A stretch of DNA of 55,611 nucleotides. Origin: Ignisphaera sp. Lineage in GTDB: Archaea; Thermoproteota; Thermoprotei_A; Sulfolobales; Ignisphaeraceae. The DNA lies in the NCBI GenBank assembly GCA_038821645.1, contig JAWBDT010000013.1, positions 1-55,611 of the forward strand, given 5' to 3'. Position 1 is the stretch's first letter, and the number at the start of each line of letters is the position of its first letter. The notes under the pieces were generated by a model, which worked only from the letters and a program-made list of their open reading frames with translations, was not told the origin of the DNA and made no database searches. The position numbers were made by a program, and so were the translations under genes. Shown piece by piece: positions 19,416 to 45,308 of this stretch.

Positions 19416-19489
19416 GGGCCCGTAGCTCAGCCTGGTGGAGCGCCCGGCTGATAACCGGGAGGTCGGGGGTTCAAATCCCCCCGGGCCCA
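19416..19489 (+). tRNA. tRNA-Ile(GAT)
   Basis: Full cloverleaf GGGCCCG...CGGGCCCA; anticodon arm CCCGG CT GAT AA CCGGG. Confidence 0.97.
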
Positions 19490-19596
19490 TTACTTTTAGT
19501 AGCTATACTAGATCAGCTAGATCGGTTAATAGTATTTATAAGCTACTCACCAACAACATATATATGGTTGTTAAAAGAAAGAGATATCAAAATTAA

Positions 19597-19706
19597 GCGG
19601 GGGTGCCCGAGCTCGGCCAAAGGGGGCGGGCTCAAGTATTTTATCGCTTGATGTGGGAGAGACCCGCTGGCGTAGGCCTGCGTGGGTTCAAATCCCACCC
19701 CCCGCA
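19597..19706 (+). tRNA. tRNA-Leu(CAA) with ~25-nt intron (about 19637-19661, position 37/38)
   Basis: GCGGGGG...CCCCCGCA, long variable arm, GCGGG CT CAA G [intron] A CCCGC. Confidence 0.93.
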
Positions 19707-19842
19707 TCACAATTATCAATATAATAGTTCTGGTAAGAGGCTATAGATAGTTATAGGTATGAATCTGATAAAGTGATGTAGCATTGATGCTAATATTTCT
19801 GTAGTTTTTAGCAGATTAACTCTAGATAGGGTTGTTGTAGAT

Positions 19843-20043
19843 ATGAATTACAGTCAAGAAAATGAAGAGACTTGTGGATGGATAATGAAGTGTACTATCT
19901 GTGGAACACTCTGGATTCTAGAAGTCAGTTTTGACATAAGAGATACCAAAAGACTTTATCATTTCTGTAGAAAATGTAGATCCAATACGTTTCACGAAGT
20001 TTTAGGGAGAAAGGAAAAGAGATCAAAATCTGAAACTAAATAA
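19843..20043 (+). CDS. Small Zn-ribbon protein
   Basis: CTIC...CRKC...TFH. Confidence 0.7.
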   Translation: MNYSQENEETCGWIMKCTICGTLWILEVSFDIRDTKRLYHFCRKCRSNTFHEVLGRKEKRSKSETK

Positions 20044-20083
20044 TGCTTTTAACCCTAGTTGTATTATTAACATTATTTGTGGT

Positions 20084-20159
<76 letters not shown>

Positions 20160-20301
20160 AACATCATTCTATGCAACATCATGAAAGTATGTCTTTTAGT
20201 GACTTGTAGTATTGATATGTTCATGTAAACAAGTTTTAGCTTAGCTAAACTTTATCCAAATATAGATATCATCATATGTAGTTTAATTGTTTTTGTATAA
20301 T

Positions 20302-20313
20302 AAAGCTTATAAG
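20302..20313 (+). promoter_or_regulatory. BRE/TATA promoter upstream of rRNA leader
   Basis: AAAGCTTATAAG ~35 nt before the GC-rich leader. Confidence 0.6.
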
Positions 20314-20499
20314 GTTGTACAGACAAAGTTAGGTATCGCGACATACAATCCCGCGGTCCGGCGGCAAAGCTGGACGCGGAGCCATGCTCCGTGAATGAAG
20401 GACTTGAACTCCAGCCGCGGGTATAGTTACTCAATAACATAAAAAGGGATATAATCATGGGGATCCGATTCAACCCGGGGAACTAACCCGGGGAGATCG

Positions 20500-20549
20500 G
20501 ATCTCACAGGATGTTCGCAATCCAGATCACAAAGCAGTACGCTACCGCA
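20500..20549 (+). other. 5' arm of 16S processing stem with bulge-helix-bulge
   Basis: Pairs with 22086-22136; TCAC/GTGA helix flanked by AAA and AGT bulges. Confidence 0.9.
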
Positions 20550-20571
20550 GCCCCGCGGCCTTGCGGCCGCG

Positions 20572-22076
<1,505 letters not shown>

Positions 22077-22085
22077 AACAGGGCA

Positions 22086-22136
22086 TGCGGTAGCGTACTG
22101 CGTGAAGTTCTGGATTGCGAACATCCTAGTGAGATC
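22086..22136 (+). other. 3' arm of 16S processing stem
   Basis: Reverse complement of 20500-20549 with BHB. Confidence 0.9.
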
Positions 22137-22190
22137 TAGAACCCCATGGATCTGGGGTTCTAGATTGATTGCGTGAGTGTTATACAATGA

Positions 22191-22228
22191 GCGCTATGCA
22201 GACCCAGCGTAAACCAGCCCCGCCTCAT
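22191..22228 (+). other. 5' arm of 23S processing stem with BHB (pairs with about 25311-25348)
   Basis: GCGT/ACGC helix with AAA and ATT bulges. Confidence 0.88.
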
Positions 22229-22230
22229 GT

Positions 22231-25308
<3,078 letters not shown>

Positions 25309-25360
25309 TTATGGGGCGGGGCTGGACGCATTTGGGTCTGCATAGCGTGAGTAGGGATCT

Positions 25361-30667: not shown

Positions 30668-31234
30668 CTACAACTTAATCCACTTAAAAACTATATAACG
30701 TATATTGTTGTCATCTCTATCCACGATAGCTAGTACAGAGTGCTTCCTTACACTATGGCTAACTCTACCAAGAGCTACTATATCTGTAGGCTTGATTTTG
30801 TGTTCTTTAGCTACAACAGTAATAACATAAGGTGCATGTTCGTATCCTGGTCCCACAGTATATACAGTAAAATCTGCTCCATATTTAGTTCCACCTCTTA
30901 TTATATAGTTACGATCCCTTAGATATTCATAAACACGATATTTAACATCAAAATCATGTGAAACACTTTTACAGAAATCCCATAGCTTATTACAGTCGAT
31001 GGACTCACCATTGATATTTACCTCAGCTAAACCCTTTTTACAGAGATAGAGAGTTTCATACATAGATAAAACTAGAGGTTCTTGATAGCTTTGATCAATC
31101 TTGGGTTTCGAAATAGATAACGGTTTGCCATAGAACTGCTTAAACAAGGTATTGCTCTGAATTTTATCTAATACTAAAGATTTCCTACCAACAACATCTA
31201 TCTTAGCTATGTAGTTCTTATCGTATATAGCCAT
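30668..31234 (-). CDS. endA: tRNA-splicing endonuclease, catalytic (alpha) subunit
   Basis: Catalytic Y/H/K in KYGADF.VY..GPGYEHAPY...RVSHSVRK; FYGKPLSISKPK loop. Confidence 0.93.
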   Translation of the reverse strand: MAIYDKNYIAKIDVVGRKSLVLDKIQSNTLFKQFYGKPLSISKPKIDQSYQEPLVLSMYETLYLCKKGLAEVNINGESIDCNKLWDFCKSVSHDFDVKYRVYEYLRDRNYIIRGGTKYGADFTVYTVGPGYEHAPYVITVVAKEHKIKPTDIVALGRVSHSVRKHSVLAIVDRDDNNIRYIVFKWIKL

Positions 31235-35693: not shown

Positions 35694-35923
35694 TGGTAGC
35701 CGGGCGGGGATTCGAACCCCGGTCACGGGGGCTCTTCTCTTAACCGCCGCCACCCAGGCAGAGCTAAGCATTATCAGTATAGGTTGATAGGTATTTAAGT
35801 TTTCATAGATCTTCTAAAGATGTAGAGTTATTCTGAATCAATATATTGAATAAGAACAATTTTGTGTGGGTGGCGGCGGTTAGATCCAAAGCCCCGCATC
35901 CTTGGCCGCTAGACGACCCGGCT
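35694..35923 (-). tRNA. tRNA-Gln(TTG) interrupted at 37/38 by 154 nt (35732-35885); candidate split tRNA (5' half 35886-35923, 3' half 35694-35731 incl. CCA)
   Basis: AGCCGGG...CTTTGG | CCCCCGTG...CCCGGCTACCA; BHB CUUU/GAAG; 16-bp complementary flanks 35741-56 and 35867-82. Confidence 0.93.
35792..35804 (-). promoter_or_regulatory. BRE/TATA inside the tRNA-Gln intervening sequence (putative promoter for the 3' half)
   Basis: Minus strand GAAAACTTAAATA, ~35 nt upstream of the 3' complementary leader. Confidence 0.7.
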
Positions 35924-37689: not shown

Positions 37690-37739
37690 TCAGGGCGAGA
37701 GCTCTTCATCATGAATCAGTCGGTTTGCGTAATCATCAT
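37690..37739 (-). ncRNA. C/D box sRNA, double guide to 23S helix 89 region
   Basis: Perfect boxes ATGATGA-TTACGCAAACCGA-CTGA-TTC-ATGATGA-AGAGCTCTCGCC-CTGA; matches 23S 24880-87 and 24857-65. Confidence 0.9.
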
Positions 37740-43569: not shown

Positions 43570-44418
43570 TCAATATACACCTATGCTAATTAGAGCTTCC
43601 ATTCGTTGTCCATTTATGAATCTAGTTTCGACTCCTCTAGATTTCAGTATACTATCTATGTATTCTTTGTTGAGACGCTCTACCGGATTGTATTCTTTGG
43701 ATCCTAAAACGAAGTTACATGCATATCCAAATGATGGAATCCATACTTGGTATTCTAAATAATATCTATATACGTTCTTAATAGAATTAGCTATGGAGTT
43801 ATAAACATCTCTGTAAAAGAATGCTGAACCAGCTTGTGTAACGACTACACCATCACTACTTAAGATTCTATATACATCTCTGTAGAAATTCTCGCTATAG
43901 AGTGGTTTAGCTATATCGCTCGAATATGGATCCGTTAGATCTAGTATAACGACATCGTATATTTCTTTTGTTTCAGAAACAAACTTTAAGCCATCTTCAA
44001 TTATTATCCTAGCTCTTGAATCATAGAAAGCATTTCCATGAAACGAAGGTAGATGCTCTTTCGAAACCTCAATAATATCTTCATCTATATCAACCATAAC
44101 GGCTAATTCTACTGTTTTATGTTTTAGAACTTCACGTAGTGTAGCTCCCTCACCTCCACCAATTATCAATACTTTAGTTGGGTTGGGGTGGAGCACCATA
44201 GCTGGATGAACTAGAGATTCATGGTATATATGTTCATCTGCTTCACTACTTTGGATATATCCATCGAGAATAAGGCTCCGCCCAAAATCTTCCACATCAG
44301 CTACTATTATTTCCTGATATTTGGATCTCTTTACAACATGTACCTGTTTAACTTTTAAACTCATTGTACTTCCTCTTCCTATACCTTGGATAATAACTAG
44401 ACCAAGCAACTTTATCAC
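43570..44418 (-). CDS. speE: Polyamine aminopropyltransferase (spermidine synthase family)
   Basis: SKYQEI, LDG.IQ...DE..YHE, GGGEG, VDID, DLTDP. Confidence 0.92.
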   Translation of the reverse strand: MIKLLGLVIIQGIGRGSTMSLKVKQVHVVKRSKYQEIIVADVEDFGRSLILDGYIQSSEADEHIYHESLVHPAMVLHPNPTKVLIIGGGEGATLREVLKHKTVELAVMVDIDEDIIEVSKEHLPSFHGNAFYDSRARIIIEDGLKFVSETKEIYDVVILDLTDPYSSDIAKPLYSENFYRDVYRILSSDGVVVTQAGSAFFYRDVYNSIANSIKNVYRYYLEYQVWIPSFGYACNFVLGSKEYNPVERLNKEYIDSILKSRGVETRFINGQRMEALISIGVY

Positions 44419-44540
44419 CTTGTGTTAACAGTATTCCGGAAATCACATAATAGTTCTAGATTAATAGTTTTTTTGTTGAACCATTAAGTATAAAAATCTA
44501 GCTAGAGTTAATAGTGTTCAGCTGTAAAATAATTCAATAG

Positions 44541-44589
44541 ATGATGTACATGCTAAATACTGAAAAATGATGAAGGGCCAAAGCGCTGA
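44541..44589 (+). ncRNA. C/D box sRNA, predicted guide for Um34 of spliced tRNA-Gln(UUG)
   Basis: ATGATGT-ACATGCTAAATA-CTGA-AAA-ATGATGA-AGGGCCAAAGCG-CTGA; GGGCCAAAGC complements GCUUUGG|CCC. Confidence 0.88.
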
Positions 44590-44633
44590 TTCTAAATTTT
44601 AATTACTATAAGGGGATCAAGAGTTAGCGATAT

Positions 44634-45308
44634 TCATCGACATTTTTTTATAGCTAAACCTCTTATGAGTTGTGATTCGTATCTACTTAACTCAACTCTT
44701 TTACCATTTATTAACAAGGATATCATCATAGGTGATGTAGATTCTATACATACCTTCTTACTCACCTCGATACCTAGACTGATGATCTTTGCAAGAAGAG
44801 AGCTATCAAATGAACATAAAATACGTGTAATGATTATCTCTGTTCCTTCAACAAACTCTGTTAACGGTAGATCGCTCACGTTTTCTACAACTGAACCTGG
44901 TATAGGGTTTCCATGTGGGCATCGACTTGGTTTTTGCATATATACCCAAAGTCTATCCAATATTTCATCCGGTAGATGTTCAAACATATGTGCATATCTA
45001 TGGGATTCTATAAGATCGAATCCTAAATGGAGATGCAGAAAGGTTTCAGCAATTCTATGTTTCTTAACAGCATCTTCAGCCAATCTTCTACCTTTTTTTG
45101 TTAGCTTAACACCTTCATATGGTATCCATCTGATATAGTCTCCTTCAGCTAATTTCTTCAAAGTTTTAGAAACAGTAGCAGGCGTTACATTAAGCTCTGA
45201 TGCAATATCTTGGGTTTTAGCTACACCATATATTTCCTCAAGTCTGTATACAGCCTTAAGATAATCTTCTAGAGTCTTAGTTTGTATCTTGAAATGTTTC
45301 ATAACCAT
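44634..45308 (-). CDS. DtxR/MntR metal-dependent repressor with FeoA-like C-terminal domain
   Basis: EDYLKAVY, HTH, KHRIAETFL, FEH, CPHGNPIP. Confidence 0.92.
   Translation of the reverse strand: MVMKHFKIQTKTLEDYLKAVYRLEEIYGVAKTQDIASELNVTPATVSKTLKKLAEGDYIRWIPYEGVKLTKKGRRLAEDAVKKHRIAETFLHLHLGFDLIESHRYAHMFEHLPDEILDRLWVYMQKPSRCPHGNPIPGSVVENVSDLPLTEFVEGTEIIITRILCSFDSSLLAKIISLGIEVSKKVCIESTSPMMISLLINGKRVELSRYESQLIRGLAIKKCR

What the first reader, a model, noticed from the sequence alone, without database searches (positions are those of the whole stretch)
44541..44589. C/D sRNA whose guide reads the splice junction of the interrupted tRNA-Gln
Seen: the D guide AGGGCCAAAGCG pairs 10 bp with GCUUUGG|CCC, which exists only after the two tRNA-Gln exons are joined (the precursor gives 7 bp). 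The N+5 rule points to wobble U34. Known: Sulfolobus sR14 guides Um34 in tRNA-Gln(UUG). Inference: this independently supports the junction call and a functional spliced tRNA, and suggests methylation follows splicing. The D' guide (ACATGCTAAATA) has no target that I can find in this window.
Basis: partly seen in the sequence, partly recalled or inferred. Interest (0 to 1): 0.72.

Follow-up and report, generated by a model that had tools for sequence, protein, structure and literature searches.

The report
Guide RNA methylating tRNA-Gln wobble uridine
This is an ordinary archaeal box C/D guide RNA, a relative of Sulfolobus sR14, that should direct ribose methylation of the wobble uridine of tRNA-Gln(UUG); because this organism's tRNA-Gln gene carries an intron, the full guide match exists only after splicing.

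Summary
Window 44541-44589 (+) is a four-box C/D sRNA with two 12-nt spacers. Positions 2-11 of its D spacer (GGGCCAAAGC) pair perfectly with G31-C40 of spliced tRNA-Gln(UUG), and position 5 faces U34.

The tRNA gene is at 35694-35923 (-). It carries a 154-nt intron in a strict bulge-helix-bulge motif at 37/38.

The guide core is widely conserved. It was found in 33 of 41 related genomes, 17 of 17 in the genus, and in Sulfolobaceae copies of Rfam sR14. Um34 has been observed in S. acidocaldarius tRNA-Gln(UUG) (PMC7668247).

However, 25 of those 41 genomes have an uninterrupted tRNA-Gln(UUG) gene with the same mature sequence. The guide therefore reads the mature anticodon arm. Spanning a splice junction is a by-product of lineage-specific intron gain, not a special adaptation.

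Methylation after splicing is a reasonable inference, since the precursor offers only 7 contiguous pairs, but it is not shown. The D' guide is conserved within the family and has no perfect target. Its best candidate is the tRNA-Pro(UGG) D arm.

Verdict: a new member of a known kind, of modest interest.

The parts
44537..44592 (+). Whole box C/D sRNA (approximate RNA ends; core 44541-44589)
   Evidence: Extent of the Rfam C/D model alignments. It lies in the 215-nt gap between a spermidine synthase gene (43570-44418, -) and a DtxR-type repressor gene (44634-45308, -).
44541..44547 (+). Box C (ATGATGT)
   Evidence: The variant ending in T is the C box of 10 of 25 four-box candidates in this genome.
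44548..44559 (+). D' guide, 12 nt (ACATGCTAAATA)
   Evidence: The core CAYGCTAAA is conserved in the genus and family. No perfect stable-RNA target was found.
44560..44563 (+). Box D' (CTGA)
44567..44573 (+). Box C' (ATGATGA), 3 nt after D'
44574..44585 (+). D guide, 12 nt (AGGGCCAAAGCG). Positions 2-11 (44575-44584) pair with G31-C40 of mature tRNA-Gln(UUG). 44581 faces U34.
   Evidence: The 10-nt core is the same in 33 of 41 related genomes, while positions 1 and 12 vary.
44586..44589 (+). Box D (CTGA)
35886..35923 (-). tRNA-Gln(UUG) exon 1 (positions 1-37). Guide footprint G31-G37 = 35892-35886; U34 = 35889.
35732..35885 (-). 154-nt intron at 37/38 with an 18-bp G+C-rich outer helix
   Evidence: Strict hBHBh' motif, fold, and no Rfam family. 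DNA contigs of co-occurring relatives join 35731 to 35886 exactly.
35694..35731 (-). tRNA-Gln(UUG) exon 2 (positions 38-76, CCA encoded). C38-C40 = 35731-35729 pair with guide GGG.
30698..30952 (-). tRNA splicing endonuclease gene (context: the enzyme needed before the full target exists)
   Evidence: Pfam PF01974, 97 bits.

Best explanation
This is the Ignisphaera-lineage counterpart of Sulfolobus sR14, a trans-acting box C/D sRNA. It should assemble with L7Ae, Nop5 and fibrillarin. Positions 2-11 of its D spacer pair with nucleotides 31-40 of tRNA-Gln(UUG), and fibrillarin methylates the 2'-OH of the wobble U34.

Shown here: the RNA's anatomy, the complementarity, its conservation, and the presence of the protein genes.

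Inferred: expression, the methylation itself, and the order of events. In this genome the only tRNA-Gln(UUG) gene has a 154-nt intron between 37 and 38. The 10-bp duplex can therefore form only after the endonuclease and RtcB ligase have joined the exons, so Um34 is most likely added after splicing (my estimate about 0.7 for that step).

The junction-spanning is a consequence of an intron gained inside an old guide footprint. It is not a dedicated junction sensor.
For: - Anatomy: four boxes, 12-nt spacers and a 3-nt D'-C' linker. There are 25 such elements in the genome against 0-1 in each of 10 simulated genomes.
- Target: the only perfect core-10 match in the rRNA and mature tRNA set is spliced tRNA-Gln(UUG). 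The chance rate is 0.7-0.9%. No comparable match exists in 5S, SRP or RNase P RNA or in rRNA.
- CUG isoacceptor: it differs only at position 34, which would put an A.C mismatch at the target site.
- Conservation, first pattern: a pattern forcing only TGATG..CCAAAG..CTGA hit 30 of 41 genomes. In 29 of these the unforced flanks GGG and C are also identical. The 2 other rows lack a C box.
- Conservation, further copies: three more genomes have the guide with a degenerate C' box. G036 has it with a CGGA D box.
- Pattern of variation: only spacer positions 1 and 12 vary, while flanking DNA is unrelated between species. Positions 2-11 are exactly those that pair in solved C/D RNP structures (PMC9670817, passages).
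- Wider distribution: a genome-collection scan gave at least 119 hits. Of the 80 listed, 72 are Thermoproteota of the Desulfurococcales/Sulfolobales type and 8 are bacterial, about the chance level.
- Link to sR14: Rfam sR14 hits above cut-off (6 of 101 genomes, all in the family that includes the S. acidocaldarius control) carry [A/G]GGGCCAAAGCT.
- Literature: Um34 and a predicted U34 guide for S. acidocaldarius tRNA-Gln(UUG) (PMC7668247); Pyrobaculum sR27:U34Gln (PMC6009581).
- Machinery in this genome: fibrillarin, Nop5, L7Ae, EndA and RtcB.
- Order of events: in 7 of the 8 related genomes that have both the sRNA and an interrupted gene, the joined exons read GG^CCC. The exception is G033. 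Intron starts differ (AUC, ACA, AGC, UCC, ACG, ACC) while the guide does not change.
- Energetics: naked-RNA duplex energy is -21.2 kcal/mol for the mature target and -12.3 for the precursor at 37 C, and -5.0 against -0.8 at 90 C.
Against: - No expression or modification data. The one RNA run that held part of the stretch gave no cover at the sRNA, and the contig data cannot show RNA ends.
- The Rfam sR14 model scores only 20.5 bits here against a cut-off of 38.
- The precursor is not devoid of pairing: 7 pairs, then 3 more after one mismatch. The computed cost of opening the target is somewhat higher in the mature tRNA (11.3 kcal/mol) than in the precursor (8.5-10.6) at 37 C. Pre-splicing action is therefore not excluded.
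- In G033 the mature tRNA has A38, yet the guide is unchanged. Nine of ten pairs with an internal mismatch are evidently tolerated, or the guide is idle there.
- The mature target includes both strands of the anticodon stem (G31 with C39; C40 with G30, which lies outside the footprint), which must be opened.
- The assembly is 97.8% complete, so an unassembled intronless copy cannot be ruled out.
Confidence: 0.85

Rival explanations
1. The sRNP methylates U34 on the intron-containing precursor, before splicing. This is the order reported for Haloferax pre-tRNA-Trp and recalled for pre-tRNA-Met. It would use the 7 exon-1 pairs plus the 3 pairs that intron bases 2-4 can add.
For: The precursor duplex of 7+3 pairs is predicted at 37 C. 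The guide's first base A (44574) can pair with intron base 4, and the close relative G004 shares both that A and the intron start. G033 shows that an imperfect duplex is compatible with keeping the guide.
Against: - At 70-90 C only the 7-bp part is predicted, with -4.8 and -0.8 kcal/mol.
- U33-U35 sit in the central helix of the BHB motif.
- Spacer position 12 does not pair in solved RNPs (PMC9670817).
- Guides do not co-vary with intron starts across 8 interrupted genomes.
Confidence: 0.12
2. The tRNA-Gln match is coincidental and the D guide's true target is another RNA, such as rRNA or an mRNA.
For: Several 10-of-12 matches exist elsewhere in the genome, as expected for 3.1 million positions.
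Against: None of these matches lies in a stable RNA. The core is invariant across families, as is its tRNA target G31-C40, even where the rest of the anticodon stem differs, as in Sulfolobaceae. The modification has been observed in Sulfolobus (PMC7668247).
Confidence: 0.02
3. This is an addition rather than an alternative. The D' guide is also active and directs methylation in the D arm of tRNA-Pro(UGG). It would pair with G10-G18 with one mismatch at U17, and N+5 falls on U13. That would make this a two-tRNA guide.
For: It is the best stable-RNA match for the D' guides of four genomes. The tRNA-Pro(UGG) D arm is identical in 22 of 24 family genomes. Guide positions that vary in the family (1, 2 as Y opposite G10, 9 as Y opposite U17, and 12) are those that need no Watson-Crick pair, while positions 3-8, 10 and 11 are invariant and paired. 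Sulfolobaceae sR14 D' spacers contain GCTAGAC, the complement of the D arm of tRNA-Gln.
Against: There is an internal mismatch and an A/U-rich duplex in a hyperthermophile. A match with at most one mismatch somewhere in 7.9 kb is not rare by my estimate (no tool result). Um13 is not a modification I know of. The C/U variation at position 9 would fit a target with G there better, but no such RNA was found.
Confidence: 0.25
4. The element is a decaying or silent copy with no function in this organism.
For: No RNA evidence was obtained.
Against: All boxes are intact and the guide core is identical to that of 32 other genomes, while the flanks have diverged completely.
Confidence: 0.03

Closest known systems
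Sulfolobus sR14 (Rfam RF01145), the guide predicted for U34 of tRNA-Gln(UUG) in S. acidocaldarius
   Same: The 10-nt D-guide core GGGCCAAAGC is identical in all 9 Sulfolobaceae copies fetched. The target string G31-C40 is the same, and so is the predicted product Um34, which has been observed in S. acidocaldarius (PMC7668247).
   Different: - This copy has canonical C (AUGAUGU) and D (CUGA) boxes, whereas Sulfolobaceae copies use GUGAAGA and CAGA/CGGA.
- The D' guide is unrelated apart from a GCUA core.
- The Rfam score is below cut-off.
- The Sulfolobaceae tRNA-Gln(UUG) genes fetched are uninterrupted (4 of 4), so the junction issue does not arise there.
- The name sR14 for the tRNA-Gln guide comes from the Rfam family label plus the guide sequence. 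I did not see it spelled out in a paper.
Pyrobaculum sR27 (U34 of tRNA-Gln)
   Same: A C/D sRNA guide with a single tRNA target at the wobble U of tRNA-Gln (PMC6009581, passage).
   Different: It comes from a different order, and I did not see its sequence. The paper's supplements were closed, so homology is untested.
Haloferax/Pyrococcus pre-tRNA-Trp intron guide and Haloferax sR-tMet
   Same: Box C/D-guided 2'-O-methylation of position 34 in an intron-containing tRNA (PMC4033218, passages).
   Different: In tRNA-Trp the guide is the intron itself, so the precursor is the substrate. That the sR-tMet guide needs intron sequence is my recollection, not seen in a call. Here the intron contributes nothing to the conserved duplex and interrupts it, which implies the opposite order.
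Protein-only Nm34 methyltransferases (bacterial TrmL, eukaryotic Trm7-Trm734)
   Same: The same chemical outcome at the wobble ribose (PMC4033218).
   Different: They use no guide RNA and have unrelated recognition.

Membership tests
Archaeal box C/D sRNA (class) | Boxes C (RUGAUGA), D' (CUGA), C' and D (CUGA) in that order | tested here: met
   ATGATGT / CTGA / ATGATGA / CTGA. There are 25 such elements in the genome against 0-1 in simulations.
Archaeal box C/D sRNA (class) | Compact size with spacers of about 12 nt | tested here: met
   Both spacers are 12 nt, the D'-C' linker is 3 nt and the core is 49 nt. The criterion is as described in PMC9670817.
Archaeal box C/D sRNA (class) | Guide complementary to a stable RNA, with the target opposite position 5 upstream of box D | tested here: met
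   A 10-bp match at positions 2-11 to mature tRNA-Gln(UUG), with position 5 opposite U34.
Archaeal box C/D sRNA (class) | Partner proteins L7Ae, Nop5 and fibrillarin encoded in the genome | tested here: met
   PF01248 103.7 bits, PF01798 253 bits and PF01269 352 bits. The Nop5 and fibrillarin genes are adjacent.
Archaeal box C/D sRNA (class) | Expressed as a small RNA that binds the proteins and directs methylation | not testable with these tools
   Only contig-level public data were available, and none covers the locus in an RNA library.
Rfam RF01145 (sR14) | Score at or above the curated gathering threshold (38 bits) | tested here: not met
   20.5 bits and 19.8 bits in the genome search. Another sRNA in the window scores about the same (19.6 bits), so at this level the model is not specific.
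Rfam RF01145 (sR14) | D guide that targets U34 of tRNA-Gln(UUG) | tested here: met
   The core GGGCCAAAGC is identical to that of the 6 above-threshold and 3 near-threshold Sulfolobaceae copies.
Rfam RF01145 (sR14) | Shared D' guide and box variants of the seed family | tested here: not met
   The D' guide differs. Sulfolobaceae copies have C box GUGAAGA and D box CAGA/CGGA.
Archaeal tRNA with a canonical BHB intron (for the target gene) | Two 3-nt bulges separated by a 4-bp helix, flanked by helices, at 37/38; the spliced product folds as a tRNA | tested here: met
   The strict motif has h = 7 bp and h' = 3 bp before a bulged A, then 15 more pairs. The spliced form is tRNA-Gln(ttg). The same site is used in 8 of the 10 interrupted genes examined, G000 included, by the strict test.

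The most novel reading that the evidence does not exclude
Some Ignisphaera-type lineages gained an intron at 37/38 of their only tRNA-Gln(UUG) gene. In these, the ancient sR14-type guide can form its 10-bp duplex only on ligated exons. Um34 is then obligatorily a post-splicing mark, the reverse of the Haloferax tRNA-Trp and tRNA-Met order. Closely related species with and without the intron (3 interrupted, 13 uninterrupted in the genus) would form a natural experiment on how guided methylation and splicing are ordered. A bolder extension is that the same RNA also marks the D arm of tRNA-Pro(UGG) through its D' guide.
Probability: 0.6. Interest if true: 0.4.

Novelty: new member of a known kind. 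Interest (0 to 1): 0.3.

Why it matters
The finding annotates an sRNA that Rfam thresholds miss, and it assigns that sRNA a target with strong comparative support. It also corrects two tRNA calls: ARAGORN reads the two Gln genes as Leu(taa) and Ser(gga).

It shows that the sR14-type U34 guide is older and more widespread than the Sulfolobaceae seed family suggests, reaching across Desulfurococcales-type lineages.

The intron inside the guide footprint gives a simple, testable prediction about the order of tRNA maturation steps in a hyperthermophile. It does not reveal a new mechanism.

Tried and rejected
- **Unconstrained split-target search.** I searched all guides against all interrupted tRNA genes without constraining the split site. 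I replaced it with a strict BHB finder and defined spliced forms.
- **Public reads.** Of 24 runs listed, I laid 2 RNA and 2 DNA runs, all kept as contigs.
  - RNA run X22 gave nothing.
  - RNA run X17 covered 14 of 30 bins but not the sRNA. Its only joint at the tRNA carries 13 other letters, so it is another organism's short-intron gene.
  - This gives no evidence either way on expression or splicing.
  - The DNA joints 35731 to 35886 come from intronless relatives in the same communities.
- **Rfam on the intron.** No credible family, and no C/D element inside the intron.
- **D' guide targets.**
  - There are two perfect 12-mers in the genome besides the gene's own antisense (C3:80283, C12:28903). 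Shuffled guides give a mean of 0.57, and 12% reach 2 or more, so this is chance level.
  - No TTTAGCGTG-type site lies in a tRNA-like context.
  - Nothing was found in 5S, SRP or RNase P RNA.
- **tRNA-Pro(UGG) as a second D-guide target.** It gives 9 of 10 pairs, with an A.G mismatch next to the target base (sequence, pairing read by eye). I judged this unlikely.
- **Covariation test with the U32 variants of tRNA-Gln(UUG).** G001 keeps the G opposite U32, giving a G-U pair. No guide was found in G031. The test was uninformative.
- **Literature.**
  - Searches for a described case of a guide spanning an exon-exon junction, or for 'methylation after splicing' in archaea, found nothing relevant. 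This covers only the held library.
  - Ziesche et al. 2004 (Mol Microbiol) is not held, and I know it only through citations.
  - Supplements of PMC6009581 and PMC7668247 were closed. They may list guide sequences and tRNA-Gln data.
- **Promoter.** A/T-rich TATA-like elements lie about 40-55 nt upstream of box C in several genus members (by eye). In a 35% G+C genome this is weak evidence, and I did not count them.

Full report
**What is there**

Window 44541-44589 (+) reads ATGATGT / ACATGCTAAATA / CTGA / AAA / ATGATGA / AGGGCCAAAGCG / CTGA. These are boxes C, D', C' and D with two 12-nt spacers and a 3-nt linker, the compact layout of archaeal box C/D sRNAs.

The window is archaeal, with 16S and 23S rRNA matching the archaeal Rfam models. 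The genome has 35% G+C, is 1.57 Mb in 31 contigs and is 97.8% complete.

A regex for the four-box layout finds 25 elements in the genome. Ten first-order Markov simulations of the genome gave 0-1 each. The C box ending in U is used by 10 of the 25.

Rfam recognises the element only below its thresholds: snoPyro_CD at 29 bits, sR14 at 20.5 bits.

The RNA lies on the + strand in a 215-nt gap between two minus-strand genes, a spermidine synthase and a DtxR-type repressor.

**The target gene**

The interrupted tRNA-Gln is not the intron-containing tRNA that Rfam reports at 19597-19706, which is tRNA-Leu(CAA). It lies at 35694-35923 on the minus strand.

- Exon 1 (38 nt) ends ...GGGGCUUUGG.
- Exon 2 (38 nt, CCA encoded) begins CCCCCG.
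- The intron between them is 154 nt.

My strict bulge-helix-bulge finder places a canonical hBHBh' exactly there. The central helix is C32-U35 with GAAG. The bulges are GG|A and AG|C. The exon helix is 7 bp, and the outer helix continues for 18 pairs with one bulged A.

The joined exons are called tRNA-Gln(ttg) by ARAGORN. On the unspliced gene, ARAGORN's intron mode calls Leu(taa).

A second Gln gene at C5:11873-11969 is identical except for C34. It is the CUG isoacceptor, with a 21-nt intron at the same site. No other copy of either exon exists in the assembly.

**The pairing**

Guide bases 44584 down to 44575 pair with G31 through C40, ten Watson-Crick pairs. Seven fall in exon 1 (window 35892-35886) and three in exon 2 (35731-35729). 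The base next to box D (44585) and the first spacer base (44574) are unpaired.

The fifth base upstream of box D, 44581, faces U34 (35889).

In the precursor only seven contiguous pairs remain. Three further pairs, one of them G-U, are possible with intron bases 2-4 after a G.A mismatch.

A perfect match of spacer positions 2-11 somewhere in the 7.9-kb set of rRNAs and mature tRNAs occurs at these rates:

| Query set | Perfect matches |
|---|---|
| Shuffles of this core | 689 of 100,000 |
| Random cores of guide composition | 1,766 of 200,000 |
| Real guides in this genome | 11 of 50 |

There is no comparable match in rRNA, 5S, SRP RNA or RNase P RNA.

**Comparative evidence**

A pattern that fixes only TGATG, CCAAAG and CTGA matched 30 of 41 related genomes, with 0 reversed-pattern control hits in 40 of them. 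In 29 genomes the unforced neighbours GGG and C are identical as well. The two other rows have no C box upstream.

Three more genomes carry the guide behind a degenerate C' box, and G036 carries it in front of a CGGA D box. In total 33 of 41 genomes have it, including 17 of 17 in the genus. The 8 without it include three assemblies of 55-79% completeness.

Only spacer positions 1 and 12 vary. The flanking DNA is unrelated between species, except in the closest relative G004.

In solved C/D RNPs, positions 2-11 form the 10-bp duplex and positions 1 and 12 do not pair (PMC9670817, passages read). The invariant block is therefore exactly the part that can pair.

A scan of one genome per species found at least 119 occurrences of the C'-guide-D string. 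Of the 80 listed, 72 are Thermoproteota labelled Desulfurococcales, Desulfurococcaceae, Ignisphaera, Sulfolobales, Staphylothermus, Thermosphaera, Thermogladius and similar. Eight are bacteria, roughly the chance expectation for 19 fixed bases by my estimate. Matching coordinates show that the window's genus is the one labelled Ignisphaera.

**Link to sR14**

The Rfam sR14 model scored above its cut-off in 6 of 101 genomes of the order. All six are in one family, in which 10 of 10 genomes scored at E of 0.01 or better. Among the named controls it scored only in Sulfolobus acidocaldarius.

All nine copies fetched from that family read [A/G]GGGCCAAAGCU before a CAGA or CGGA D box. The tRNA-Gln(UUG) genes of four of those genomes contain the same GCUUUGGCCC, although the rest of the anticodon stem differs.

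Wolff et al. [quoted passage not shown] 2004. They call this 'a situation indeed observed', and they list Um34 in tRNA-Gln(UUG) (PMC7668247, passages).

Lui et al. 2018 list sR27:U34Gln in Pyrobaculum (PMC6009581, passage).

**What the intron means**

Across the 41 genomes the state of the tRNA-Gln(UUG) gene is as follows:

| State | Genomes |
|---|---|
| Uninterrupted, identical mature anticodon arm (two have U32) | 25 |
| Intron at 37/38 of 14-175 nt | 9 |
| Apparently doubly interrupted (G027) | 1 |
| Exon 1 only, no exon 2 within 2.3 kb (G034) | 1 |
| No match found | 5 |

- Within the genus, 13 are uninterrupted, 3 are interrupted (G000, G004, G009) and 1 was not found.
- The four Sulfolobaceae genes are uninterrupted.
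- Metagenome DNA contigs that join 35731 to 35886 are such intronless alleles.

The guide is thus an old reader of the mature anticodon arm, and introns have been gained inside its footprint in some lineages.

Eight genomes have both the sRNA and an interrupted gene. In these the guide core never changes, while intron starts differ. The joined exons read GG^CCC in seven. G033 has A38, which leaves a G.A mismatch.

This supports the junction call, though the BHB motif and the intronless orthologs support it more directly. It also supports the idea that the mature tRNA is the substrate.

Nearest-neighbour energies favour the mature target:

| Temperature | Mature target (kcal/mol) | Precursor (kcal/mol) |
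|---|---|---|
| 37 C | -21.2 | -12.3 |
| 70 C | -11.1 | -4.8 |
| 90 C | -5.0 | -0.8 |

Opening costs are similar: 11.3 kcal/mol for the mature tRNA against 8.5-10.6 for the precursor at 37 C.

In the precursor, U33-U35 lie in the central BHB helix.

The genome encodes the splicing endonuclease (in the window, 30698-30952), RtcB, Nop5, fibrillarin and L7Ae.

Splicing before methylation is the more likely order, about 0.7 by my estimate, but nothing here shows it.

**The D' guide**

Its core CAYGCUAAA is conserved in the genus and in parts of the family. Other families have unrelated D' spacers or a self-complementary GGGGACCUC-type insert.

- It has no perfect target in stable RNAs.
- Its two perfect genomic matches are at chance level.
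- The best candidate is the D arm of tRNA-Pro(UGG), G10-G18, with one mismatch at U17 and N+5 at U13.

That arm is identical in 22 of 24 family genomes. The guide positions that vary are those that need no Watson-Crick pair. I rate this candidate at about 0.25.

**Verdict**

The finding is a real and well-conserved box C/D sRNA. It works like Sulfolobus sR14 and is most likely a distant ortholog of it, with U34 of tRNA-Gln(UUG) as target.

It is a new member of a known kind. The junction-spanning is incidental but gives a clean, testable prediction on the order of splicing and guided methylation.

Noticed in passing
window 35732-35885 (-): The tRNA-Gln(UUG) intron is unusually long at 154 nt, with an 18-bp G+C-rich outer helix. 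G004 has a 155-nt homolog. G009 has a 175-nt intron of different sequence but the same long-helix design. No Rfam family or C/D element lies inside it.
   Followed up: partly
window 35694-35923 (-) and G000 C5:11873-11969: ARAGORN in intron mode miscalls the two Gln genes as tRNA-Leu(taa) and tRNA-Ser(gga). Without intron mode, and in the Rfam tRNA model, the UUG gene is missed altogether.
   Followed up: yes
window 37690-37739 (-): This is a second four-box C/D sRNA candidate, with spacers TTACGCAAACCGA and AGAGCTCTCGCC. It has no perfect 10-nt or 9-nt core target in the stable-RNA set.
   Followed up: partly
G000 C11:8278 (-) and C11:57295 (+): Two other sRNAs have D' spacers with perfect 10-nt cores on the anticodon arms of tRNA-Lys(UUU) and tRNA-Val(UAC). 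By my hand count, N+5 is U34 in both. This suggests a set of wobble-U guides in this organism.
   Followed up: partly
L035 (G027): The tRNA-Gln(UUG) gene appears to carry two short introns, after position 32 and after position 37. Both lie inside the footprint of that genome's unchanged guide. This was read by eye, and the strict BHB test did not confirm it.
   Followed up: no
L037, L199 (G034): Exon 1 of tRNA-Gln(UUG) is present, but no exon 2 lies within 2.3 kb downstream. This could be a very long intron or a split gene. No sR14-type guide was found in this 99%-complete genome.
   Followed up: no
L036 (G033): The mature tRNA-Gln(UUG) would have A38 instead of C38, while the guide keeps G opposite it.
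   Followed up: partly
L200-L208 (Sulfolobaceae sR14 copies): These copies use non-canonical boxes, C as GUGAAGA and D as CAGA or CGGA. Patterns requiring CUGA therefore miss them.
   Followed up: no
many loci, e.g. L004, L082, L087: In Desulfurococcaceae-type homologs the D' spacer region is replaced by a longer self-complementary element, GGGGACCUCC...GGAGGUC. Its role is unknown.
   Followed up: no
window 19416-25315 (+): tRNA-Ile(GAU), an intron-containing tRNA-Leu(CAA) and tRNA-Ala(UGC) lie upstream of a 16S-23S operon whose spacer has no tRNA.
   Followed up: no
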